From: Methanobacteriota archaeon
Lineage (GTDB): Archaea > Thermoplasmatota > E2 > DHVEG-1
Assembly: GCA_903877165.1 (NCBI GenBank)
Contig: CAIRCU010000024.1
Location: forward strand, 4,688-68,687
Direction: 5' to 3'
DNA: 64,000 bases
Below, piece after piece: positions 35,634 through 60,931 of the stretch (positions are counted from its first letter, which is position 1; each line of letters starts with the position of its first letter). A program made the position numbers and the translations under genes. The notes under the pieces were generated by a model. That model searched no databases and was not told the origin of the DNA. It saw only the letters and a list, made by a program, of their open reading frames with translations.

Positions 35634-37028
35634 ATGCGGAGTAAAGAATACAAGTATAGAACAGCATCATTAATGCATATCGGCAGTACTCTTTTTTTTA
35701 CGGCAGTACTCATGATTTCATCTCTTACGTATTCAATTGGGACTTCTGCGTCTGGAACTCGAAATGATCCACCTAACAAACCAAATACTCCAGACCCGGC
35801 GAATGCATCAACGAACGTCTCCATCACTGCACAGCTCAGCTGGATCGGTGGTGATCCAGACCCCGAGGATGTGGTAACGTACGATGTGTATTTCGATACG
35901 GTGTCTCCGCCCGCTCTCATGGTGAATAATCAGTCTGCAACCTCATACGATCCCGGCCTCATGGAGTACCTAACGACGTATTATTGGCAGGTTGTTGCTT
36001 GGGATGGCCAGGGCAATTCTACAGCAGGCGAAGTATGGGAATTTACTACGGTGCCAAATCATCCGCCAAATATGCCAGCCAACCCAGATCCAGCAAATGA
36101 GTCAACAGACGTCTCCATACAGACGAATCTTTCATGGATTGGAGGCGACCCCGATAATGATTCGGTGATCTATGATGTTTATTTTGGGGATACGACCACA
36201 CCTCCGCAAATCGCAAGCAACCTCACCGATACGACCTGTGCGCTTCCAACACTCGCCTACAGCACGACGTACTATTGGCGAATCATCGCCACAGATAATC
36301 ATTCCGCGAACACAACTGGGCCACTATGGATGTTTACTACCGAAATCAGAACCGGGATTTGGATCACCATAACGAAACCGGTGAACAACTCGTTCTATTT
36401 CCAGGATCAGCGACATAACCTCTCTGGCAGGACGATAATATACGGTTCGATAAATATCACAGCCGATGCATCCGCAGACGCAGGAATCGCAAGGGTCGAA
36501 TTTTATATCGATGGGAAACTCAAAGGGAACGATACCACGGCACCATATAGCTGTATTTGGAAACCGCTTCTCCAGTTCAACGGTCTTTCCCTGAGGCATA
36601 CAATCAAGGTGGTCGCTATTGACACGAAAGGGAAGAACGCCTCCGCTGAGATCAACGTCACCAAATGGAGGTTCCACGTGCTTCCCTGGCTCGTCATCGG
36701 AGCCGTTGCGCTTTCATCCATGGTGCCGCATACCAAGATGAAGGGATTTGTCTTTAACCTCCGGGCTAAAGGCACGGGGTATACCTTTTTTGTCCTGCGC
36801 ATGTCCTACCATACCGTCGGCCCGTTAAAGAACGAACGGGGAATCATCAAGATGAAACGCTGCGTCGCCAGCATCCTCGTCGGACCAATGATGATCTTGA
36901 AGCTCGGGCCGGGCCACATGTTCTCCTATGTCTCCATCACATTCCTTGGGGGCGTCCAACTTGCGACACACTCCCTAGGAAACCTATTCGACCGTTCTCC
37001 ACAGCCCCTCCGTAAGAACGGTCGATAA
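35634..37028 (+). CDS. Secreted/anchored protein with two tandem FN3-like repeats, an Ig-like domain and a C-terminal TM segment
   Basis: GGAGGA RBS. N-terminal signal/TM. Two ~99-aa repeats (…PDPANxSTxVSI…LSWIGGDPD…YDVYF…TYYW…). 'VEFYIDGKLKGNDTTAPYSCIWKP' Ig-like domain. Many N-x-S/T sequons. Confidence 0.7.
   Translation: MRSKEYKYRTASLMHIGSTLFFTAVLMISSLTYSIGTSASGTRNDPPNKPNTPDPANASTNVSITAQLSWIGGDPDPEDVVTYDVYFDTVSPPALMVNNQSATSYDPGLMEYLTTYYWQVVAWDGQGNSTAGEVWEFTTVPNHPPNMPANPDPANESTDVSIQTNLSWIGGDPDNDSVIYDVYFGDTTTPPQIASNLTDTTCALPTLAYSTTYYWRIIATDNHSANTTGPLWMFTTEIRTGIWITITKPVNNSFYFQDQRHNLSGRTIIYGSINITADASADAGIARVEFYIDGKLKGNDTTAPYSCIWKPLLQFNGLSLRHTIKVVAIDTKGKNASAEINVTKWRFHVLPWLVIGAVALSSMVPHTKMKGFVFNLRAKGTGYTFFVLRMSYHTVGPLKNERGIIKMKRCVASILVGPMMILKLGPGHMFSYVSITFLGGVQLATHSLGNLFDRSPQPLRKNGR
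35763..36353 (+). repeat. Two tandem ~297-nt intragenic repeats encoding FN3-like modules
   Basis: Protein repeats beginning NDPPNKPNTPDPANAST… and NHPPNMPANPDPANEST…. Confidence 0.6.
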
Positions 37029-37663
37029 AATCACAATGAAAGGCTCCGCGTTGCTCCCCAGAGTTCGCAGCCAGATGACCGACAGCGGCTCAATCCAAGG
37101 ATAGAATTCACAGGGTATTTCGTGGACGCATGCTTCCAATGCTCATCGAGTATTGAACATTACGCACACGTTGTCCCTCCTGCAGCCGTCTTCTTACCAA
37201 CAGATTCTGGAGCGAATGCGAACACCACAGGTCCACTGGACTGACTGACCACGACCGATCCTCATCCTACTACCAAGACCAACAAGGACATCGCCATGTG
37301 ACCCTCATCGACATCCCACGGTATGAGAACCGACAAGATCAAAAGGCTTGCTGAAAAAACAAGACGCAACAAGGTAACAGAAACGAAGCCCTATCTCATC
37401 GTTTATTCTGCTCGTGTGTAAGGCTACGGAAGCGCACTCCGAGGAGGAAGACCTCGGCGATGAAGCGCAGTTCACGATGTTCCTCATCATTGGACACGGT
37501 GCCGACGACGATCATTCTAGACATCTCCTTGCTGCCGTTTGCTAGCAAGTAGCAATAAATATATTAAACTCGTAAATATAAATAAGTTCCGGTGAAACCA
37601 CCCTAAAAACCAACCAAAAAAACAATTATATAAAAACCGCTATATACACCCATACGTGAAACC

Positions 37664-39712
37664 ATGGCCTCCAGACCTATCGTGATCATCGCCATCGCCC
37701 TCCTCCTCATCCTTCCCATCATCCCTCCGCACGCAAGCGCACACGCGCCCACCGCAGTCCTTTACGTCGACGACGATAACACCCAAGGACCCTGGGACGG
37801 CACCCCAGACCATCCCTACCAGCACATCACAGACGCTGTCGCCAACGCCACCGACAACGACACCATCTACATCGAAAACGGCACGTACCACGAACAAATC
37901 ACCCTCACCAAACCCCTCACCATCCAAGGCCAAGAAAAAAACACCACACTCGTCACCGCGGACGGCAAAGGCAGCATCCTGACCATTGGAGCAGACCATG
38001 TCTGCGTCACTGACCTCACCTTCCTCAACTCCGCAGGCAGACCAGACACCGCGGCCGTCGACATCCACGCGGACCACACCATCATCTCCCGCTGCATCAT
38101 CTACCGGCACCGACTCGGCATCGCCATCACCGGCCATACCGACCTCACCGTTACCGACTGCATGATCCACGTCACCCAACAAGGCATCCATATCGTGAAC
38201 AGCAGTCGCATCACCATCACCGACACGTACCTCTACCACAACGCCATCAGCATCCTCCTCAAAGGATCCTCAGCCGCCACCATCAACGCATGTTTCATGC
38301 ATACCAATGGCGTCGGCTGCTACGCCCAACACGACACCGCCCTCACTATCACCCACTGCGCATTCTGCGACAACAACGACAACCAAGGCGGCGTCTTCCT
38401 CCGGAACACTACATCCACAACCATCACCGACTCCTACTTCAAGAACAACGGCGTCGGCGTCGGCATCAAAAGTAGCAACGACACCACTATCGCCCACAGC
38501 ACGTTTATCAAAAACACGCACTTCGCCGTGAAACTCTGGAACGCCACAGCCACCACTCTACAAAATAACAGCTTCGACAGTAACCTCCGCAACGCAGTCT
38601 ACGCGGAATACAGCACCCTCACTTACACCCGCAACCTGCTGCACAACGACACCAATTACGGACTCTACGCAGCACATACCACCGCGAACGCCACCCGCAA
38701 CTGGTGGGGATCAGCGCTCGGGCCAGCCCGCACCAGCTACTCCACACGCGCCGACCGAGGCTCACGAGGACAAGGAACACTGCAGTACTACCCCTGGCTC
38801 TTCACAGCACCAAACGACACCGGCATCACCTGGGACCCCTTAACTCAGTTCACCGCCCCGCAGCACCCGGACACCTGGAAACCCACTCTCACCCTGCCTG
38901 GCAGCGACACGGACGGCGACGGCGCCCCGGACTGGTGGGAGATCAAATGGGGATACGACCCGACCGTCCCCGATGACCATGCCCATCTCGACCCGGACGG
39001 CGACGGCCTCACCAACCTTCAGGAATGCTTCACCGACGCCATGGGCTCAAACCCCTTCCACAAAGACATCTTCCTCGAAATCGACTGGCTCACCTCACTC
39101 ACCCCCAACGTCACCAACCAGCCGCCACAAAAATACCTCGACCAGATGATCGCCCCCTACGCCCAGCACAACATCACCCTTCACGTCGACACCGGGAACT
39201 TCGGCGGCGGCGAGGAGCTCCCTAGCAAAGCGGACCTCACGTACGAGGACATCGGCAACGACTACTGGGATCACTTCCTGAACGACGATCTAAACAACCC
39301 TAGAAAGGGCGTGTTCCACTACGGACTGCTGTGCGACGACAGCGAAGGCGGCGGCTTCGTGGTCATCGGCTGGGACGACCTCGACAGCTTCACCATTGCC
39401 TGCCAGCGGCTCCAGGAGAAATACACGCACTTCGCCAGAGGGCGGCTCTCGGTCGGCGGCTCCATGCACGAGCTAGGGCATCTGGAAGGACTCATCGCTG
39501 CCCGTTTCGGCGGTATCGACAACATGGCCGCAACCCACCTCCAGGAGAAAGGCTTCTGGGAGTACCGCCACTACCACAGCTGTCTGAACTACTGTTACAC
39601 GTATTTCCTGATGAACTACTCCGACGGGTCCCACGGGACCAACGACTTTAACGACTGGGCGCACCTCAACTTCACGTTCTTCAAGGCAACGGAGTTCGCG
39701 CTCCCCTCTTAA
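37664..39712 (+). CDS. Secreted chimeric protein: parallel beta-helix (NosD-like) + Ca-binding D-x-D-G-D repeats + C-terminal HExxH zinc-metallopeptidase-like domain
   Basis: Signal peptide MASRPIVIIAIALLLILPI. 'LYVDDDNTQGPWDGTPDHPYQHITDAVANATDNDTIYIENGTY' and beta-helix coils. 'DTDGDGAPDWWE…DPDGDGLTNLQE'. 'GGSMHELGHLEGL'. More than 25 N-x-S/T sequons. Confidence 0.7.
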   Translation: MASRPIVIIAIALLLILPIIPPHASAHAPTAVLYVDDDNTQGPWDGTPDHPYQHITDAVANATDNDTIYIENGTYHEQITLTKPLTIQGQEKNTTLVTADGKGSILTIGADHVCVTDLTFLNSAGRPDTAAVDIHADHTIISRCIIYRHRLGIAITGHTDLTVTDCMIHVTQQGIHIVNSSRITITDTYLYHNAISILLKGSSAATINACFMHTNGVGCYAQHDTALTITHCAFCDNNDNQGGVFLRNTTSTTITDSYFKNNGVGVGIKSSNDTTIAHSTFIKNTHFAVKLWNATATTLQNNSFDSNLRNAVYAEYSTLTYTRNLLHNDTNYGLYAAHTTANATRNWWGSALGPARTSYSTRADRGSRGQGTLQYYPWLFTAPNDTGITWDPLTQFTAPQHPDTWKPTLTLPGSDTDGDGAPDWWEIKWGYDPTVPDDHAHLDPDGDGLTNLQECFTDAMGSNPFHKDIFLEIDWLTSLTPNVTNQPPQKYLDQMIAPYAQHNITLHVDTGNFGGGEELPSKADLTYEDIGNDYWDHFLNDDLNNPRKGVFHYGLLCDDSEGGGFVVIGWDDLDSFTIACQRLQEKYTHFARGRLSVGGSMHELGHLEGLIAARFGGIDNMAATHLQEKGFWEYRHYHSCLNYCYTYFLMNYSDGSHGTNDFNDWAHLNFTFFKATEFALPS

Positions 39713-51195: not shown

Positions 51196-53253
51196 ATGGA
51201 TTCAGGTCTGCTGATGAGAAAGTGTTCTGCTGTCGGAATCATCCTCTTGTTCCTAGGAATGTGCGTCATTCCAGCAGCTGCACAGGACATTGAGAAATCA
51301 TCGTTTCCGGCATCACGAGGGAATTGGTTGTATGTCGGTGGTTCAGGCCCAGGGAACTATACGAAGATTCAGGATGCGATTGACAACGCAAGTGACGGGG
51401 ATACGGTGTACGTGTATAGCGGAACGTATGCTGGATCTGTCGTCATTACAAAATCAATTAACCTCATTGGTGAGGATAAGAATACAACGGTCATCAGTGG
51501 ATATTTTGCCTACACGGTGTACATACTGTCTGATTGGGTCAATTTGAGTGGGTTTACCATTTATACGAACGGGCGTCTCGGTGAGGGTATTCGAATAGAT
51601 TCATGCCACAACACCTTTGTAGGCAACATCATCGACGCCCCCCGTGATAGAATTCGGGTTGCTGGTGACAGCAACATCGTCTCCGGGAACACCATCAGAA
51701 ACTGCTATCTCTTTCTTGTTGGTGATGGCAACACTATCTCAGGAAACGTCATCTCAAACACCTATTATGGCATATACTTAACAGATTATGCTTCTAACAA
51801 CATTATTTCAAATAATTCTCTTTTCGACTCAGGTCTATTTATCGCCGATGCTGCTGTTTGGCATAACACCGTTACGAACAACACGGTGAATGGCAAACCG
51901 CTTGTCTATCTTGCTGATGAATCCGACTTGGTACTCGATGGTGATGCAGGGCAAATACTTCTTGTGAATTGCACCAATATCACTGTACAACACCAAGAAA
52001 TATCCAACACTACTGTCGGTATCCAACTTTGGGGATCCACTTCCTGCGTCATCTCCGGAAACACTATCGCTGGGAATCATTTTGGCATGTACCTCTGCGG
52101 TTCGAACAACACCATAATTGACAACACCATCACCCATAACTATAACGGCATCTTTCTTACAGGGGACAACAATACCATCTCTGGTAACACCTTCACAAAC
52201 AACGATGACGGCATATACCTCTCATATAGCGATCACAACGGCATCATCAATAACACTATCACAAACAACTATTATGGCATGCTGCTGAACGACGGTGGCG
52301 ATGTCAATACTCTTACTAATAACATCATAACAAACAACTATTACGGTATTTTTCTTTCAGCCAACAGCAACATCATCTCCGGTAACACTATCTCGAACAA
52401 CGATGACGGCATCTACCTGTCGTATAGCGATCGCAACACTATGATTAGGAACACCATTACAGACAACTCTTATGGCATACTGCTGAATTATAGTAGCGAT
52501 TTCAGTAGTATTATCAATAACACTCTTTCAAACAACAGCCATGCTGTCATAGGTCTTTCTGGCAACAGGAACACTATGATCTCTGGTAACACCATCTCGA
52601 ACAACGGCGATGGGGTATACCTCTCGTTTAGCGATCACAACGGCATCTTCAATAACACCATCACAAACAACGACGACAATGGCGTGCGTCTGTTTGGCGA
52701 CAGCAACATCATCTCTGGCAACACCCTCACACACAACAATGGTAGTGGCATCTACATAGATGACAGCGATTACAACACCATTATCAGTAACACCATTTCA
52801 AACAACAGCGATGACGGCATACGTCTTTTCGGTGACGACAATGCGGTCTCTACCAACATCATCACAAATAACAGCAACGGCATATACGTCTTGAGCCACA
52901 AGAACAACACAATCTCAGGTAATACTATTGCTTGGAACAATTGGTCTGGTGTATACCTGAGTGGTTCCAGGGGCAATACCATTTCTGGGAACTGCATCTC
53001 AACAAATAGACAAGGCATCTTTTTCGTTTTATCAACCAACAATACCGTCCTTAAGAACAACTTTCTGGGAAACAAACGGCATGCTCTTTTTGAAAACTGC
53101 ACAAACCTTTGGAACAGGAATTATTGGGGTAGACCACGGATACTTCCCAAACTCGTTTTTGGTATAAGAATGGTACAGAATAAATGGCCGTTGCCACTAA
53201 TCGATATCGACCGGCATCCCTCATTTCTACCTTATAACATCCCCCAGGACTGA
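51196..53253 (+). CDS. Secreted parallel beta-helix repeat protein (NosD/PbH1-like) with ~22-aa coils; AT-rich gene
   Basis: Signal peptide. 'WLYVGGSGPGNYTKIQDAIDNASDGDTVYVYSGTY' N-terminal module is paralogous to 14069..15403. More than 20 'ISGNTI(S/T)NN…GIYL' coils. Confidence 0.75.
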   Translation: MDSGLLMRKCSAVGIILLFLGMCVIPAAAQDIEKSSFPASRGNWLYVGGSGPGNYTKIQDAIDNASDGDTVYVYSGTYAGSVVITKSINLIGEDKNTTVISGYFAYTVYILSDWVNLSGFTIYTNGRLGEGIRIDSCHNTFVGNIIDAPRDRIRVAGDSNIVSGNTIRNCYLFLVGDGNTISGNVISNTYYGIYLTDYASNNIISNNSLFDSGLFIADAAVWHNTVTNNTVNGKPLVYLADESDLVLDGDAGQILLVNCTNITVQHQEISNTTVGIQLWGSTSCVISGNTIAGNHFGMYLCGSNNTIIDNTITHNYNGIFLTGDNNTISGNTFTNNDDGIYLSYSDHNGIINNTITNNYYGMLLNDGGDVNTLTNNIITNNYYGIFLSANSNIISGNTISNNDDGIYLSYSDRNTMIRNTITDNSYGILLNYSSDFSSIINNTLSNNSHAVIGLSGNRNTMISGNTISNNGDGVYLSFSDHNGIFNNTITNNDDNGVRLFGDSNIISGNTLTHNNGSGIYIDDSDYNTIISNTISNNSDDGIRLFGDDNAVSTNIITNNSNGIYVLSHKNNTISGNTIAWNNWSGVYLSGSRGNTISGNCISTNRQGIFFVLSTNNTVLKNNFLGNKRHALFENCTNLWNRNYWGRPRILPKLVFGIRMVQNKWPLPLIDIDRHPSFLPYNIPQD
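52180..52671 (+). repeat. Three ~90-nt near-identical segments spaced ~200 nt apart inside the beta-helix gene
   Basis: 52180-52269, 52378-52467 and 52582-52671 each encode (I)SGNT(F/I)(T/S)NNDDGIYLSYSD(H/R)N…. Confidence 0.6.
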
Positions 53254-53319
53254 GAAAAAAAGGTTATCTGATGAGATAACTATTTAACCAATAAAATTTA
53301 TTATTATACAGGGGCCTTT

Positions 53320-55050
53320 ATGGAGAAAGACGGAAAATGTCGGATCTTCGTTTTTTGTTTCATACTCGTACTTGTTGGACCTTGTCTGTCCTCGGTACTT
53401 GAAGCGAAGAACATGCCTCTCGATATGAAAACATCGGGAAGATTTCCAGATGGCCAGATTTTGTTTACTCCGTTTTATTCAACAACAACCTATTTAATCA
53501 ATGGCACGGGCGCGGTAAATCATACGTGGTCAAGTGCGTATGCACCCAGGTACGCTTCGTATTGGTTAGGGAACGGTACCATTCTCCTTCCAATCGATAC
53601 GGGCTCCGGTGGTTTCCAAGAAATTGCATGGAATGGAACGGTGATCTGGGACTACCGATTTTCTCGATCTGGATGCTGCTGCCATCATGATGTGAAGCCG
53701 TTACCAAATGGAAATGTGTTGATGATCGTTCAGGAAATAAAAACACCCGCTCAAGCGATTGCCGCGGGACGCGACCCAGCAACCATCGAGAACTCATTTT
53801 TCCCAGATTTCCTCATCGAAGTCCACCAAACAGGTCCGTCCAGTGGTACAATCGTCTGGGAATGGCACCAATGGGATCATCTCATCCAGGATTTCGATTC
53901 AACAAAAAACAACTATGGTGTCGTCGGAGATCACCCGGAATTAATTGACATCAATTTCGGTGAATATTTTTATGGAGACTGGATTCACACGAATTCAGTG
54001 GATTACAACCCAGCGTTTGACCAAATACTCATCAGCGCCCATAATTTCGACGAAGTCTGGATCATCGATCACAGCACAACCACTGAGGAGGCCGCTGGCC
54101 ACACCGGTGGGCACTATGGGCACGGCGGCGATCTGCTGTACCGCTGGGGAAACCCACAGGCCTACCAACGCGGAAACGCAAGTGATAAAAAATTGTTCTT
54201 CCAACACCAATGCATCTGGATAAAACCCAGGTATCCTGGTGAAGGAGACATACTTATTTTCGACAACGGCAACAACCGTCCTGGTGGACCCTATTCGACA
54301 GCCGATGAATTTACACCGCCAGTGGACTCCAACGGATCGTATTATCTCGAACCGGGTTCAGTATATGGTCCTGAGAACTATACTTGGAGTTATACGGCGG
54401 TTCCACCGGGGAGTCTGTATTCAGACATTTTCGGTGGTGTACAGCGCCTTCCGGACGGGGATACGCTAATTTGCGATGGAGTCCCCGGAAAATTTATTGA
54501 AGTGACGCCGGAGAAAACAGTCGTCTGGGAGTATGTCAATCCATATCCTTGGCCAACCATGAGTCCGGTGTTTAAAATTGAATACATCTGCCCTATGCCA
54601 CCTTTGCCACCGCCAAAGCCTGATTTATATTGCATAGGGCGTCTCGTATGGGTGGGCATTCAGCCAGGGGTAAACGTCACGGGGAGCTTTCAGGTGCAGA
54701 ACTTCGGAGATCCTGGCTCACGATTGAACTGGACGGTGAATTTGTCCTCCCTGATGTGGGGGAAATGGACGATTACTCCCTCGTCCGGCGTAGACCTCAC
54801 CCCCGAGGAGGGGCCCGTAAGCGTGCAGGTGAATGTGATTGCGCCTGGCGAGAAAAACGCGGAGTTCCATGGGGCCCTCATGGTACAGAACAAGGAGAAT
54901 GCGTCGGATTTCGGTACAATCCCAATAACTCTGACAACCCCGTTGATCAACTCTCTTCCACCAGCTCACCCCTTCATGAATATGGTGCGGCAGTGGCTTT
55001 CATTTTTGAAAGATGTGTTGAAAAGAGCCGTTGCTTTAGTGGAACATTGA
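53320..55050 (+). CDS. Secreted beta-propeller protein, ASST-like; AT-rich paralog
   Basis: Signal peptide MEKDGKCRIFVFCFILVLVGPCLSS. Core nearly identical to the 48931 gene over about 150 aa; termini divergent. Confidence 0.55.
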   Translation: MEKDGKCRIFVFCFILVLVGPCLSSVLEAKNMPLDMKTSGRFPDGQILFTPFYSTTTYLINGTGAVNHTWSSAYAPRYASYWLGNGTILLPIDTGSGGFQEIAWNGTVIWDYRFSRSGCCCHHDVKPLPNGNVLMIVQEIKTPAQAIAAGRDPATIENSFFPDFLIEVHQTGPSSGTIVWEWHQWDHLIQDFDSTKNNYGVVGDHPELIDINFGEYFYGDWIHTNSVDYNPAFDQILISAHNFDEVWIIDHSTTTEEAAGHTGGHYGHGGDLLYRWGNPQAYQRGNASDKKLFFQHQCIWIKPRYPGEGDILIFDNGNNRPGGPYSTADEFTPPVDSNGSYYLEPGSVYGPENYTWSYTAVPPGSLYSDIFGGVQRLPDGDTLICDGVPGKFIEVTPEKTVVWEYVNPYPWPTMSPVFKIEYICPMPPLPPPKPDLYCIGRLVWVGIQPGVNVTGSFQVQNFGDPGSRLNWTVNLSSLMWGKWTITPSSGVDLTPEEGPVSVQVNVIAPGEKNAEFHGALMVQNKENASDFGTIPITLTTPLINSLPPAHPFMNMVRQWLSFLKDVLKRAVALVEH

Positions 55051-56328: not shown

Positions 56329-56590
56329 CTTCCCATCACGACGTCATAGCAGTAAAAAAAACAGGAGGGGTGAAAGGAAAAGGGGTCTAACTTGTCTGGG
56401 AGGAAAAGAATGAAAAAGAAACAGATCTTTAATATTCTTTCATTAGACCCCTCTGAGGCAGGATATATCGTGATAGTACATAAAGCTAACTCTCGCCCAA
56501 TCACCCAAAATTCTTATATAGAAGGAAAAAAACCGTGCGGACCGGGAGCCCGATAGACTGCCGATCCATCAGGGGACGACCCACGAACCA

Positions 56591-57142
56591 TTAATGGTGA
56601 ATCAGCCCAAGCGACGTCAATTCCTGCGATAACTTCTCCACGGCAAGCGACACATCCGCGATCTTTCGCGCGCCGGTGCAGACGATCTTCCCGGAGCCAA
56701 ACAGCAGCATCGCCACTTTCGGTTCCTTAATGCGGTACACTAGACCAGGGAACTGCTCGGGCTCATACTCCACGTTCTCCAGCCCCAGCGCCATCGCGAC
56801 CTCGTTGAGATTCAACTCACCGCCCAAATCCGAGATCGCCACGATGTTCTGGATCACAATCTCCGGGTTCTTGTAGACATCGACGTTGAGTTTCTTCAAC
56901 TTCTCCGCAATGATATTGATCGTGGTCCGAACGTCCTCGATGTTCTTCGCCCCGGTACAGTTCGCTTTGCCGCTGCGGAACAGCAGGGTCGCGGTCTTCG
57001 GGTTACTCAACCGGTAGACAAGCCCAGGGAACTGCTCAGGCTCATACTCGGCTTCTTCCAGCGACTGGGCGATCACGTCCAAATCCAACTTATCTGAAAA
57101 CGACGTCGATGCCACGATGTTTTCAACGATTACTTCCGGCAT
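56591..57142 (-). CDS. tbp: TATA-box binding protein
   Basis: Two canonical repeats (ENIVAS…EYEPEQFPGLVYR…LLF(R/G)SGK…CTGA(K/R)) and an acidic tail. Confidence 0.95.
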   Translation of the reverse strand: MPEVIVENIVASTSFSDKLDLDVIAQSLEEAEYEPEQFPGLVYRLSNPKTATLLFRSGKANCTGAKNIEDVRTTINIIAEKLKKLNVDVYKNPEIVIQNIVAISDLGGELNLNEVAMALGLENVEYEPEQFPGLVYRIKEPKVAMLLFGSGKIVCTGARKIADVSLAVEKLSQELTSLGLIHH

Positions 57143-57164
57143 AGCTCTTTCTTTCCTCCTTCTC

Positions 57165-57701
57165 TTACGTTTTCATTCCTGATGCAAGACGCGATGAAAG
57201 CACAGTCAACGCGTCCGTGACAGCCTCAACCGATGGTCCGTCAGCGACCATCTTCCCCGAATCAAACAGGAGTATAACTGTATTTGGGTCTTCGGTCTTC
57301 ACCATCAACCCTGGGAAGTCCGGCTGCTCCGCCGGCACAACCTGCAGAGTCTTCCGCAGCTCATCCAGCGGCAGCGGCATCCCCAAATGAAGTGAAGCTA
57401 CCGCATGCTCAACGGTCAGCATCGCTCGTTTGTTCTTCGAAACCCCAAGCAGGGACAGCCGCTGATCCATCAGCGAGACCACTTCTTCCGCCTCGGAAAG
57501 CGACGTGACCCCAGTAACCTTCATCTCGCCAGAGTCAAACAGGAACACCGCAGCGCGAGGCTGGGGAACCTGTACCATCAGCACCGGGGTCTCCTCCGGT
57601 TTATATGTCGCATGGGTAAGCGCGGAAGCGAGAGTAGCGAGATCAAGATGCTGCGCAATAGGGCAGGAAATAACAATGTTTTCCACCTGGACCTCGGGCA
57701 T
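57165..57701 (-). CDS. Divergent TBP paralog (TBP-like), 22 nt upstream of tbp
   Basis: Same two-repeat architecture (MPEVQVENIVIS…LFDSGEMKVTG / …PDFPGLMV…LLFDSGKMVADG). First-repeat 'EQFPGL' is replaced by 'EETPVL'. Confidence 0.7.
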   Translation of the reverse strand: MPEVQVENIVISCPIAQHLDLATLASALTHATYKPEETPVLMVQVPQPRAAVFLFDSGEMKVTGVTSLSEAEEVVSLMDQRLSLLGVSKNKRAMLTVEHAVASLHLGMPLPLDELRKTLQVVPAEQPDFPGLMVKTEDPNTVILLFDSGKMVADGPSVEAVTDALTVLSSRLASGMKT

Positions 57702-57781
57702 TATTGATATTTCCCCTCCTTATAGTATATAAAGGGTATTTATAAAGATTTCTTTAAAAACTAGGAATCGGAGATGATTGT

Positions 57782-58486
57782 TCACCACACCTTATCGACA
57801 TCAAGATCTGATTCCTCTTCTGTTGCAGGCCGCTTGCGCGCACCCTTCTTCGCCCCAGCGTTCTCCAATAACCCATGAATCTCCCGGGACCGGTCCTCCA
57901 TACGGTGCTCGGAGGAAACGACGACCAGCTCACCCCGGGTCTTCTCGATAAGACTGCGAATGACATCCTGTTTTTTCTTGATAGGAACAAGACCCGAAGG
58001 GTAATCAAAACTCATGACCGCATCATAAATCTGGTCCATGAGCTTGAGGTACTCAGTCGCCTTCTTCGTCTCACTCTCCAACATAAGGTCCAACGCCGCT
58101 CGGCGCAACTCACCGACGACGTCACACAACCCCATGAGATATGAACTCGACGTCGTCTGTAGTGCCTCCGGGCTGGGGAGATCCTTTCCCTGCATGATAC
58201 ACAGCAGACAGGAGGCTTCTACGAACTCCTGCTCCGCATTCTCCACGTACCCCGCAAAGAAGATATCCTGATGCTGCTTCGTCAGCGTCCTCATCTGAGA
58301 CAACAACGACGCCGCCTGCCCGATGAACTCCTCCGCCGCAGGCGTCAAGTCCCGATGCAGATGCTGAATCGCTCTCCGGCAGTAAATAATGATATCCCGG
58401 GAGAAACGGAGTGCCCCCTCACGGACTTTCTCCTTCTCAGAAATCTCCTGGTCTATCTTCGCCATGATCGCATCAAGGTTCTTCAT
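57782..58486 (-). CDS. Translin-family protein
   Basis: 234 aa. 'YLMGLCDVVGELRRAALD' resembles the translin GELxR signature. All-helical. Assignment from memory of the motif. Confidence 0.55.
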   Translation of the reverse strand: MKNLDAIMAKIDQEISEKEKVREGALRFSRDIIIYCRRAIQHLHRDLTPAAEEFIGQAASLLSQMRTLTKQHQDIFFAGYVENAEQEFVEASCLLCIMQGKDLPSPEALQTTSSSYLMGLCDVVGELRRAALDLMLESETKKATEYLKLMDQIYDAVMSFDYPSGLVPIKKKQDVIRSLIEKTRGELVVVSSEHRMEDRSREIHGLLENAGAKKGARKRPATEEESDLDVDKVW

Positions 58487-58514: not shown

Positions 58515-59456
58515 TTACTTTGGTCGATTCACCCAGAACTCCGGCGTCTTCCCCGCCAACACCAGAAGCACCTGCTCCGCGCAAATCGAACCTGCCCGCA
58601 GCTGCCCTTCTTTCGTCGACGCCCCGATATGCGGCGTGCACACCACGCCGGGATGGTTCACGATGTCTTTGAACACTGGCGGCTCAGCCTCGTACACATC
58701 CAACGCGGCAGCCCGGACCTTCCCAGCCTGCAGCGCCTTGAGCAGCGCCTTCTCATCGACGGTGCCGCCACGCGCGCAGTTCACCAGGATGACGCCGTTC
58801 TTCATCTTTCCGAACTCTGCATCCTTGAGCACCGCGCCCTCCTGCTTGTTGAACGGGATATGCAAAGAGATATAATCCGCAGACCCTAGCAACGCATCCA
58901 AGGAGACAAGGGTGATGCCTTTCATCGGCGATTTCGTCACATACTTATCGTACGCAACCACCTTCATGTTGCAGGCCATCGCACGTTTCGCCAGCTCCGC
59001 CCCGATCCGGCCAATGCCGATGATCCCCAGGGTTTTCTCGGAGAGCTCCACACCTTTAAACGCTTTCTTCTCCCACAGACCCTGCTTCATGGAACGGTCC
59101 GCCTGAGGAATCGAACGAGACGTGGCAAGCATCAGACCCAACGCGAGCTCCGCGACGCTGACCGTCGACCCGGTTGGCGCATTCACAACTTTGATGTTAT
59201 ACTTACTTGCGGTCGGCAGGTCGATGTTGTCCACACCGATGCCCGCACGGCCGATGACCTTGAGGTTCCCTTTAGCGCCTTTCTCAATGACCTCCGCGGT
59301 GACCTTCGTCCGGCTGCGCACCATGAGCGCATCGTACTTCGAGATCTCGGCAAGGAGTGTCGCCGGGTCCATCTCATTGAACACGACCTCGTGGCCTGCG
59401 GTCTTCATCTGCTGAAGGACTTCCTGCTCAGTCTTATCGGTAACAAGGATCTTCAT
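58515..59456 (-). CDS. D-isomer-specific 2-hydroxyacid dehydrogenase (phosphoglycerate dehydrogenase-like, no ACT domain)
   Basis: NAD site GIIGIGRIGAELAKRA. Catalytic R/E/H framework (…CARG…HIGAST). Confidence 0.85.
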   Translation of the reverse strand: MKILVTDKTEQEVLQQMKTAGHEVVFNEMDPATLLAEISKYDALMVRSRTKVTAEVIEKGAKGNLKVIGRAGIGVDNIDLPTASKYNIKVVNAPTGSTVSVAELALGLMLATSRSIPQADRSMKQGLWEKKAFKGVELSEKTLGIIGIGRIGAELAKRAMACNMKVVAYDKYVTKSPMKGITLVSLDALLGSADYISLHIPFNKQEGAVLKDAEFGKMKNGVILVNCARGGTVDEKALLKALQAGKVRAAALDVYEAEPPVFKDIVNHPGVVCTPHIGASTKEGQLRAGSICAEQVLLVLAGKTPEFWVNRPK

Positions 59457-59537
59457 AAGGTATCGCCTCGCCCAAGGGTAACCGGTCCACCATCAAATAT
59501 TTTATGGCAGAATCAGGCCAAAAAACACCCAAACACT

Positions 59538-60827
<1,290 letters not shown>

Positions 60828-60931
60828 TTAGCTCCCCAAGTAGCCTCTGCGAACACCTCGGGGCTTTAAAAAAATTGCGTTAGGCGAAACTCTTAAGAAT
60901 CAAGAGGAGTTGAGTCACCCGAGGTGAAGTT

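What the first reader, a model, noticed from the sequence alone, without database searches (positions are those of the whole stretch)
56591..57701. Canonical TBP co-transcribed with a divergent TBP paralog
Two TBP-fold genes sit 22 nt apart on the same strand. The downstream one is a textbook TBP. The upstream one keeps the two-repeat saddle architecture and the 'LFDSGK' strands, but lacks the conserved DNA-kinking Phe in repeat 1 ('EETPVL' instead of 'EQFPGL') and the acidic tail. It could be a promoter-selective or decoy TBP.
Basis: partly seen in the sequence, partly recalled or inferred. Interest (0 to 1): 0.65.

Follow-up and report, generated by a model that had tools for sequence, protein, structure and literature searches.

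The report
Degenerate TBP paralog upstream of TBP
An uncultured Thermoplasmatota archaeon, like dozens of its relatives, encodes its almost invariant TATA-binding protein as the second gene of a two-gene operon. The first gene is a fast-evolving TBP copy that keeps the saddle fold and half of the DNA-binding surface but has lost a DNA-kinking phenylalanine and the residues that normally hold TFB, so it looks like a built-in modulator rather than a second initiation factor.

Summary
On the minus strand, a 178-aa divergent TBP (57165-57701) lies 22 nt upstream of a 183-aa canonical TBP (56591-57142). A GGAGG precedes the second gene, the spacer is too short for a promoter, a promoter lies upstream of the pair and a T7 run follows it.

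This is not a recent duplicate or a pseudogene. The same paralog-then-TBP arrangement occurs in 67 of 87 informative related loci, all Thermoplasmatota MAGs or sediment and freshwater metagenomes. The canonical copy is 92-98% identical across 23 species. The paralog is only 31-67% identical, yet it is under purifying selection (dN/dS about 0.2, against about 0.02 for the canonical copy).

Across 31 paralogs:
- The repeat-1 Phe (yeast F99) is never Phe.
- R105, L114 and K120 are mostly lost, and T215 is always Asn or Asp.
- The TFB-contacting E186/E188 pair is not conserved.
- N69, T124, F190, F207, K211 and V213 are invariant.
- The AlphaFold model (pLDDT 90) matches P. woesei TBP at TM 0.86.

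My best reading is an accessory, non-initiating or weakly initiating TBP that modulates TBP action, either on DNA or by pairing with TBP. A TFB-sequestering decoy is disfavoured. A promoter-selective initiator cannot be excluded. The closest known cases are haloarchaeal TbpC and metazoan TRF2. Novelty: a new variant of a known kind. A deeply conserved dual-TATA promoter is a side finding.

The parts
57747..57755 (-). BRE-like purine-rich element (AAAGAAATC; CGAAAT in most relatives) directly 5' of TATA box 1
   Evidence: Read from the sequence. Conserved as [AT]CGAAA[TC][GC] in related loci. Its function is inferred from the archaeal BRE/TATA consensus (established knowledge).
57739..57746 (-). 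TATA box 1 (TTTATAAA)
   Evidence: Exact match. TTTATAAA lies exactly 13 nt upstream of TATA box 2 in 43 of 62 informative tandem loci.
57726..57733 (-). TATA box 2 (TTTATATA, core of the conserved 12-mer CCTTTATATACT), positions -32..-25 from the paralog ATG
   Evidence: Exact match. The 12-mer is exact in 53 of 62 informative loci. The spacing predicts a leaderless or very short-leader mRNA (inference).
57713..57719 (-). Conserved GGAGGGG block downstream of TATA box 2 (an SD or a promoter-proximal element; unresolved)
   Evidence: Its position is fixed relative to TATA box 2 rather than to the ATG across clades.
57165..57701 (-). Divergent TBP paralog ('TBP-prime'), 178 aa, first cistron
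   Evidence: Pfam TBP with two repeats, 104 bits. AF2 pLDDT 90.4 and pTM 0.81. Foldseek match to 1AIS_A at TM 0.86. Residue map. dN/dS 0.29 against L001. Fails all ten NCBIfam TBP cut-offs.
57143..57164 (-). 22-nt intercistronic spacer with GGAGG (57155-57159) 12 nt before the canonical ATG; no TATA-like sequence
   Evidence: The equivalent junctions in relatives range from a 13-nt overlap to +27 nt, nearly all with a GGAGG-type SD.
56591..57142 (-). Canonical TBP, 183 aa, second cistron
   Evidence: Pfam TBP 199.5 bits. All four Phe and E186/E188 are present. It is 92-98% identical across 23 species. dN/dS is about 0.02. Passes NCBIfam NF001597 and NF001593.
56526..56532 (-). T7 run about 60 nt after the canonical stop codon; likely archaeal oligo-T terminator that ends the operon
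   Evidence: Comparable T-runs follow the canonical gene in the related loci. Terminator function is inferred.
57782..58486 (-). Translin-family gene. It is the conserved upstream neighbour but probably a separate transcript, because a T5 run (57756-57760) precedes the TBP promoter
   Evidence: Pfam Translin, 43.8 bits. Syntenic in most loci at 55-71% identity.

Best explanation
The locus is a two-gene operon, conserved across a large clade of uncultured Thermoplasmatota. An ancient tandem duplicate of TBP (TBP-prime) is the first cistron, and the essential, almost invariant TBP is the second.

TBP-prime still folds as a two-lobed saddle. It keeps the central minor-groove contacts and the complete C-lobe wedge (F190, P191, L205, F207, K211, V213). 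It has lost the N-lobe stirrup Phe, most N-lobe phosphate and groove contacts, and the acidic stirrup pair that docks TFB.

The most likely mode of action is therefore accessory and non-initiating, or only weakly initiating. The protein is made together with TBP from one mRNA. It then either occupies TATA/AT-rich DNA through its intact C-lobe without recruiting TFB productively, or pairs with TBP through the same concave C-lobe surface that TBP dimers use. Either way it would tune how much TBP is available for initiation.

Shown: the anatomy, synteny, selection, fold and residue pattern. Inferred: co-transcription, residual DNA binding, failure to bind TFB, and the modulatory role.
For: - Synteny: the paralog sits immediately upstream of the canonical TBP in all 23 species representatives where the contig allows, and in 67 of 87 informative loci overall.
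- One promoter, one terminator: the junction runs from a 13-nt overlap to +27 nt and nearly always has a GGAGG-type SD. The only conserved promoter is upstream of the paralog, and an oligo-T run follows the canonical gene.
- Selection: paralog dN/dS is 0.09-0.45 (typically about 0.2). Canonical dN/dS is 0.003-0.10 (typically about 0.02) at the same dS. ORFs are intact in all loci.
- Fold: AF2 pLDDT 90.4, with TM 0.86 to the P. woesei TBP in the TBP/TFB/DNA complex 1AIS.
- Residue pattern in 31 paralogs:
  - N-lobe DNA-contact retention is 0.38 (F99 0%, R105 0%, L114 0%, K120 10%, F116 52%).
  - C-lobe retention is 0.72 (F190, F207, K211 and V213 at 100%; N159 and L205 at 90%).
  - T215 is always N or D.
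  - The TFB trio E186/E188/L189 is retained at 0.09, with R/K at position 188 in 19 of 31.
  - The canonical copies retain 0.99-1.0 at all of these positions.
- Role of E186/E188: they are the conserved TFB/TFIIB-contacting pair (PMC7221094).
- A sister clade carries a less degenerate upstream paralog (F99, T215 and mostly E186 kept; F116 often Leu). This shows stepwise loss rather than a one-off accident.
- Precedent: archaeal basal-factor paralogs can evolve into inhibitors or modulators, for example TFS4 (PMC5715097) and TFB3 (PMC6101594).
Against: - There is no experimental or expression data. DNA binding, TFB binding and dimerisation are all inferred from aligned residues.
- The window's own protein keeps three of four Phe and E186. 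It also has a clade-specific Phe at the L114 position that could partly replace F99. It may therefore still bend DNA and touch TFB.
- Conservation of the C-lobe underside cannot tell DNA binding apart from TBP-TBP pairing.
- The paralog was lost cleanly in at least one sub-lineage (L044/L049) while the promoter was kept. It is therefore dispensable there, and the dual-TATA promoter does not depend on it.
- I could not survey TFB paralogs genome-wide. A co-evolved TFB partner would turn this into an orthogonal initiation pair.
Confidence: 0.45

Rival explanations
1. TBP-prime is a promoter-selective alternative initiation factor. It recognises a variant or half TATA element (altered centre through T215N/D and V161T, a single kink) and recruits RNAP through the housekeeping TFB or a dedicated TFB paralog.
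For: - The fold and C-lobe wedge are intact, and N69, T124 and N159 are kept.
- The family-wide T215 to N/D change sits at a base-contacting position and could re-tune specificity.
- The window clade keeps E186 and three Phe.
- TBP/TFB multiplicity with specific pairs is established in haloarchaea (PMC5501381).
- TFB expansions are reported in Thermoplasmata (PMC3261711).
Against: - The TFB-contact trio is the least conserved part of the protein, and in 19 of 31 paralogs position 188 is R/K.
- Strict co-transcription with TBP gives no independent regulation, unlike known alternative TBPs.
- No TFB gene lies in the window.
- The only TFB recovered near these operons is the highly conserved housekeeping one.
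Confidence: 0.27
2. TBP-prime is a decoy that sequesters TFB away from promoters.
For: It has a TBP fold and is co-expressed with TBP. The window protein retains E186.
Against: The C-terminal stirrup residues that dock TFB are not conserved (retention 0.09) and are often charge-reversed. The DNA-facing C-lobe residues are invariant instead. This is the opposite of what a TFB trap needs (PMC7221094).
Confidence: 0.05
3. TBP-prime is a decaying, functionless duplicate that persists only because it lies between the promoter and the essential TBP gene.
For: - It evolves about 10 times faster than TBP.
- It was lost without loss of the promoter in L044/L049.
- The haloarchaeal analogue TbpC is dispensable and was not detected as a transcript in one strain (PMC4230888).
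Against: - The ORFs are intact and of near-constant length in 67 loci.
- dN/dS is 0.1-0.45 even between saturated pairs.
- There are invariant paralog-specific residues (DPNT, FDSGK, N/D at 215).
- The fold is predicted with confidence.
Confidence: 0.06
4. TBP-prime has left transcription initiation altogether and uses the TBP fold for another nucleic-acid or protein-binding job, as the TBP-like domains of RNase HIII and DNA glycosylases do.
For: TBP domains have been co-opted repeatedly (PMC3597702). The protein fails all ten NCBIfam TBP cut-offs. A translin-family nucleic-acid-binding gene is the conserved neighbour.
Against: The obligate operon with TBP and the specific retention of the TATA-wedge residues of the C-lobe argue for a TBP-related role.
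Confidence: 0.1

Closest known systems
Haloarchaeal TbpC-like TBP paralogs (Halobacterium tbpC clade; PMC4230888)
   Same: Both are archaeal TBP paralogs that have lost the N-terminal intercalating Phe while keeping the C-terminal pair. Both are suspected to be specialised or non-initiating.
   Different: TbpC genes are dispersed, often on plasmids, and are not operonic with the housekeeping TBP. TbpC is easily deleted and was not detected as a transcript in one strain. The paralog here belongs to a different phylum. It is strictly first cistron ahead of the housekeeping TBP, is conserved clade-wide and is under purifying selection. It also carries the T215N/D change and has lost the TFB-contact Glu pair. 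I did not test a phylogenetic relationship to TbpC, and one is unlikely.
Metazoan TRF2 / TBPL1 (TLF) (PMC4422821, PMC7221094)
   Same: Both are TBP-fold paralogs with an altered TATA-contacting Phe in the N-lobe and a changed DNA-binding behaviour. Both evolve fast relative to TBP.
   Different: TRF2 does not bind TATA but still binds TFIIA and TFIIB, and it drives initiation at TATA-less promoters. Here the pattern is reversed: the C-lobe DNA wedge is kept and the TFB-docking residues are lost. TRF2 is also regulated independently of TBP, not co-transcribed with it.
Multiple TBPs of Methanosarcina (TBP1-3) and Halobacterium (TbpA-F) (PMC5501381)
   Same: Lineage-specific TBP duplication in Euryarchaeota-type archaea.
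   Different: As far as is described, those paralogs keep the canonical contact residues, are separate transcription units and are differentially expressed. None is reported as an upstream cistron of the main TBP.
Archaeal basal-factor paralogs turned modulators: TFS4 (PMC5715097), TFB3 (PMC6101594)
   Same: A duplicated general transcription factor lost key catalytic or DNA-binding residues and acts as an inhibitor or co-factor of the canonical machinery. This is the functional logic proposed here.
   Different: They belong to different protein families (TFS, TFB). Their function is shown experimentally, whereas here it is only inferred.

Membership tests
TBP family (Pfam PF00352; TATA-box-binding protein fold) | Two tandem TBP repeats detected by the family profile above its gathering score | tested here: met
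   Scores 104.4 bits against a cut-off of 22.9, with two stretches.
TBP family (Pfam PF00352; TATA-box-binding protein fold) | Saddle-shaped alpha/beta fold superposable on solved TBPs | tested here: met
   AF2 pLDDT 90.4 and pTM 0.81. Foldseek matches 1AIS_A at TM 0.86 and 1MP9 at TM 0.89, E about 1e-15.
Functional (initiation-competent) archaeal TBP | Four intercalating Phe (yeast F99, F116, F190, F207) | tested here: not met
   The window protein has Thr at F99 and keeps the other three. Position 99 is Phe in 0 of 31 clade paralogs, and F116 is kept in 52%.
Functional (initiation-competent) archaeal TBP | Acidic C-terminal stirrup pair that docks TFB/TFIIB (E186, E188; PMC7221094) | tested here: not met
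   The window protein has E186 but Pro at 188 and Asp at 189. Family retention is 10%, 13% and 3%, and position 188 is R/K in 19 of 31.
Functional (initiation-competent) archaeal TBP | Scores above the curated NCBIfam TBP cut-offs | tested here: not met
   Best scores are 112.4 bits against a cut-off of 278 and 105.2 against 181, so it fails all ten models. The canonical neighbour passes NF001597 and NF001593.
Functional (initiation-competent) archaeal TBP | Binds TATA DNA and supports TFB/RNAP-dependent initiation | not testable with these tools
   Needs EMSA, FRET bending and in-vitro transcription assays.
Haloarchaeal TbpC-like clade | Loss of the N-terminal Phe pair with retention of the C-terminal pair | tested here: inconclusive
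   The window protein lost only one of the N-terminal pair. Many relatives lost both, and the C-terminal pair is invariant. The feature definition is from PMC4230888.
Haloarchaeal TbpC-like clade | Phylogenetic grouping with Halobacterium tbpC | not tested
   I had no TbpC sequence in hand. The upstream paralogs form their own clade in an NJ tree of Thermoplasmatota and diverse TBPs.
Metazoan TRF2/TBPL1 | Retains TFIIA/TFIIB interaction while not binding TATA; eukaryotic lineage | tested here: not met
   The context is archaeal. The TFB-contact residues are lost while the C-lobe TATA wedge is kept. TRF2 properties are from PMC4422821.

The most novel reading that the evidence does not exclude
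TBP-prime is a dedicated anti-TBP. It would be a TFB-incompetent saddle that is produced stoichiometrically with TBP from one mRNA. It would either form an inactive heterodimer with TBP through the conserved C-lobe underside, or sit on TATA boxes, including the operon's own ultra-conserved dual-TATA promoter. Either route would give a clade-wide, hard-wired negative-feedback or dosage-buffering module for a general transcription factor. This would be an archaeal functional counterpart of eukaryotic TBP dimerisation and NC2/Mot1-type control, built from TBP itself.
Probability: 0.2. Interest if true: 0.75.

Novelty: new variant of a known kind. Interest (0 to 1): 0.52.

Why it matters
TBP multiplicity in archaea is usually discussed as a sigma-factor-like way to choose promoters, yet no paralog-specific promoter motif has been established (PMC5501381). 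Here the paralog cannot be regulated separately from TBP, because it is the cistron in front of it. It has also shed exactly the residues needed to recruit TFB while keeping half of the DNA wedge. This points to a different use of a duplicated general factor: modulation or buffering of TBP itself.

The lineage is widespread in sediment and freshwater metagenomes. The pair offers a natural series of stepwise degeneration. It runs from the 181-aa form, which keeps F99, T215 and mostly E186, to the 178- and 186-aa forms that have lost them. That series could be used to dissect which TBP contacts are needed for bending, for TFB docking and for dimerisation.

The 45-nt dual-TATA promoter is more conserved than the paralog's own coding sequence. 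It is a ready-made test substrate.

Tried and rejected
- **TFB partner in the window.** I ran Pfam on 30 window ORFs of plausible size. I also ran tblastn with a recalled Pyrococcus TFB sequence against the window. Neither found a TFB, so the window says nothing about TFB paralogs.
- **TFB repertoire of the clade.** I searched the protein database with the L021 TFB. The 120 rows shown were all housekeeping orthologs at 85% identity or more, so no paralog information could be extracted.
- **Natural paralog-TBP fusions (Rosetta-stone evidence for physical interaction).** The long multi-repeat hits were inspected. They are eukaryotic or other-lineage duplications or mis-assemblies, not fusions of this pair.
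- **Overall charge.** The pI is 4.8 for the paralog and 4.9 for the canonical TBP, so charge does not separate them.
- **Canonical V122N (KANCT) as co-evolution with the paralog.** Rejected, because single-TBP relatives have the same residue.
- **Dual-TATA promoter as an operator that exists for the paralog.** Weakened, because both boxes persist in L044/L049, where the paralog is deleted.
- **The 186-aa paralogs' KKEENVCQK tail as an acidic tail.** Rejected. It is encoded by the SD and start region of the overlapping canonical gene.
- **Literature.** Six full-text searches found no description of a tandem or operonic TBP paralog in Thermoplasmatota. The library is incomplete, so this is not proof of absence.
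- **Heterodimer modelling.** I did not attempt an AF2 model of a linker-fused heterodimer.

Full report
**1. The observation.**
ORF listing and direct reading of the sequence show two genes on the minus strand. The upstream ORF is 57165-57701 (178 aa). The downstream ORF is 56591-57142 (183 aa). They are separated by exactly 22 nt (57143-57164), which contain GGAGG 12 nt before the second ATG.

Pfam's TBP model hits both proteins with two repeats each, at 104 and 199.5 bits. They are 35% identical to each other. The upstream protein matches solved archaeal TBPs at E about 4e-25.

This allowed classical numbering to be used. By that numbering the downstream protein has F99, F116, F190, F207 and E186/E188. 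The upstream protein has Thr at F99 and keeps the other three Phe.

**2. It is an old, clade-wide arrangement.**
A database search with the upstream protein found nine clusters of 65-100% identity. Identity then jumps to a large 186-aa family at about 40-45% that also lacks the repeat-1 Phe.

I scanned one genome per GTDB species with an alignment of these proteins. This returned 23 loci, all from Thermoplasmatota-type MAGs. They include the MBG-D genome SM1-50, where the protein is annotated 'hypothetical'.

In every locus where the contig allows, the order is translin-family gene, then paralog, then canonical TBP. The canonical protein is 92-98% identical to the window's. The paralog is only 31-67% identical.

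I then scanned metagenome contigs from the other side, using the canonical TBP as query. Together with the first set this gave 87 informative loci:
- 67 have a TBP-like ORF immediately upstream.
- 20 have a single TBP. Most of these belong to a different lineage with a different conserved upstream region.
- Two of the 20 (L044, L049) nest among tandem lineages in the NJ tree. They retain the translin gene and the promoter but lack the paralog, which indicates a clean secondary loss.

In an NJ tree without support values, all upstream copies form one long-branched clade and all canonical copies form one very short-branched clade.

**3. Selection.**
I computed Nei-Gojobori estimates over 70 locus pairs. 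Paralog dN/dS is 0.09-0.45, typically about 0.2. Canonical dN/dS is 0.003-0.10, typically about 0.02, at comparable dS. For the window against L001, the values are 0.29 and 0.027.

The paralog is therefore constrained and is not a pseudogene, but its constraint is about ten times more relaxed than that on TBP.

**4. Fold.**
AlphaFold2 on an 18-sequence alignment gives pLDDT 90.4 and pTM 0.81, with the expected strand-helix pattern duplicated. Foldseek against the PDB returns only TBPs at the top: 1AIS_A at TM 0.86 and 1MP9 at TM 0.89.

**5. Which contacts are kept.**
The table covers 31 paralogs from the clade whose canonical TBP is at least 92% identical to the window's.

| Position (yeast numbering) | State in the 31 paralogs |
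|---|---|
| N69, T124 | 100% retained |
| V71 | V or I |
| F99 | 0% Phe (V, T, A, S, I, M) |
| R105 | 0% retained |
| L114 | 0% retained |
| K120 | 10% retained |
| F116 | 52% retained |
| F190, F207, K211, V213 | 100% retained |
| N159, L205 | 90% retained |
| R196 | K or R in 28 of 31 |
| T215 | Never Thr: Asn in 21, Asp in 10 (including the window) |
| E186 / E188 / L189 equivalents | 10% / 13% / 3% retained; R or K at 188 in 19 of 31 |

- Mean retention is 0.38 for the N-lobe contacts, 0.72 for the C-lobe contacts and 0.09 for the TFB trio. E186 and E188 are the pair identified as the conserved TFB/TFIIB contact (PMC7221094).
- All 21 canonical copies retain 0.99-1.0 at every one of these positions.
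- Among the 150 best-scoring 50%-identity representatives of TBP diversity, most carry the full canonical signature. N or D at position 215, and a non-Phe at position 99, are confined to a handful of clusters that fall in the paralog clade.
- The window's own sub-clade is less degenerate than the 186-aa type. It keeps F116 and often E186 or D186. It also has an invariant Phe at the L114 position (VFLF), which might partly substitute for F99.
- A sister clade, whose canonical TBP is 85-89% identical, has a 181-aa upstream paralog. That paralog still has F99, T215 and mostly E186, but often has Leu at F116. The degeneration was therefore stepwise.
- The roles of the individual residues come from the classical TBP-DNA and TBP-TFB structures (established knowledge). 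I did not re-derive them from coordinates here.

**6. Operon anatomy.**
Upstream of the paralog lies a block of about 45 nt that is better conserved than the paralog's coding sequence. It reads CGAAA-like element, TTTATAAA, five bases, then CCTTTATATACT followed by GGAGGG. In the window this block spans 57713-57755.
- The 12-mer is exact in 53 of 62 informative loci, and TTTATAAA lies exactly 13 nt upstream of it in 43.
- TATA box 2 sits 22-26 nt before the paralog ATG. By the usual archaeal spacing this predicts a leaderless or very short-leader mRNA. That is an inference, and which box fires is unknown.
- A T-run precedes the block, so the translin gene is probably a separate transcript.
- The paralog-canonical junction ranges from a 13-nt overlap to +27 nt in intact pairs. 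It almost always carries a GGAGG-type SD and leaves no room for a promoter.
- T-runs follow the canonical gene.
- In the 186-aa type, the paralog's KKEENVCQK tail is simply the reading of the canonical gene's SD and start region in another frame.

Co-transcription is thus well supported by anatomy and conservation, although it has not been observed directly.

**7. Interpretation.**
A TFB-titrating decoy would need the stirrup and could dispense with the DNA wedge. The data show the reverse. An independent promoter-selectivity factor would normally be regulated separately and would keep its TFB interface, or have a matching TFB.

The window has no TFB gene. The only TFB found next to related operons is the highly conserved housekeeping one. 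A genome-wide TFB survey was not possible with these tools, so this rival stands at roughly one in four.

The pattern fits best a saddle with a working C-lobe half-site, a blunted N-lobe and no TFB dock, made in fixed proportion to TBP. Such a protein would modulate TBP. It could do so by competing for TATA/AT-rich DNA without recruiting TFB. Alternatively it could pair with TBP through the concave C-lobe surface, which is the surface TBP dimers use (established knowledge from TBP crystal structures). The sequence data cannot separate these two sub-models.

Loss of the paralog in L044/L049 shows it is not essential everywhere. It also shows that the dual-TATA promoter is not there solely for the paralog.

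**8. Comparison and novelty.**
- Haloarchaeal TbpC-like genes are the nearest described case. They lost the N-terminal Phe pair, kept the C-terminal pair and have doubtful function (PMC4230888). They are dispersed genes, not the cistron ahead of the housekeeping TBP.
- Metazoan TRF2/TBPL1 lost TATA binding but keeps TFIIA/TFIIB binding (PMC4422821). That is the opposite pattern.
- TFS4 and TFB3 show that archaeal basal-factor paralogs can become inhibitors or co-factors (PMC5715097, PMC6101594).
- Six literature searches found no description of this Thermoplasmatota operon.
- NCBIfam's ten TBP models all reject the paralog.

I classify it as a new variant of a known kind (TBP paralogs). It is of moderate interest as it stands. 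It would be of high interest if the anti-TBP or feedback reading were confirmed.

Noticed in passing
window 57713-57755 (-); the equivalent region in L001-L103: An ultra-conserved dual-TATA promoter. It reads BRE-like CGAAA, TTTATAAA, 5 nt, then CCTTTATATACT followed by GGAGGG, with the two boxes 13 bp apart. The 12-mer is exact in 53 of 62 loci although synonymous sites between these genomes are saturated. Which box fires, and why there are two, is unexplained.
   Followed up: yes
L044 and L049, about 2330-2500: Two metagenome lineages keep the translin gene, both TATA boxes and the canonical TBP, but the paralog is cleanly missing. Only about 45 nt lie between the promoter and the SD. This looks like secondary loss, so the paralog is dispensable there.
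   Followed up: partly
L002-L020 junctions (e.g. L003 3549-3561): In the 186-aa paralog type, the stop codon overlaps the canonical start by 13 nt. The conserved C-terminal tail KKEENVCQK is the canonical gene's SD and start region read in another frame. It is not an acidic tail.
   Followed up: yes
window 56591-57142 (-), residues KANCT (about aa 59-63): The otherwise textbook canonical TBP has Asn at the DNA-contacting position equivalent to yeast V122. This residue is shared by tandem and single-TBP relatives but is rare among TBP representatives (9 of 148).
   Followed up: partly
L021 1274-2212; L062, L084, L099-L101 downstream of TBP: A housekeeping TFB gene lies about 640 nt upstream of the paralog in L021. 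In the single-TBP relatives it lies directly downstream of TBP. General transcription factor genes are therefore clustered in parts of this group, but not in the window.
   Followed up: partly
window 57165-57701 (-), residues VFLF (aa 52-55): The window's sub-clade has an invariant Phe at the position of yeast L114, two residues before the retained F116. It may be a shifted replacement for the lost F99.
   Followed up: partly
window 57782-58486 (-): A translin-family gene is the conserved upstream neighbour of the TBP operon in most loci. NCBIfam's nearest models call such proteins 'haloacid dehalogenase superfamily protein' (below cut-off), which conflicts with the Pfam Translin call.
   Followed up: partly
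window 37627-37647 (+): A second pair of TATA-like boxes with the same 13-bp register (TATATAAA AACCG CTATATAC) lies just upstream of a secreted beta-helix/NosD-like gene (37664-39712).
   Followed up: no
window 35634-39712 and 51196-55050 (+): A cluster of large, probably extracellular proteins: a Big_7/Ig-domain protein, two beta-helix/NosD-like proteins and an arylsulfotransferase-like protein.
   Followed up: no
window 59391-60869 (+): A 492-aa ORF lies antisense to the enolase gene (59538-60821, -). It is almost certainly a spurious antisense ORF.
   Followed up: no
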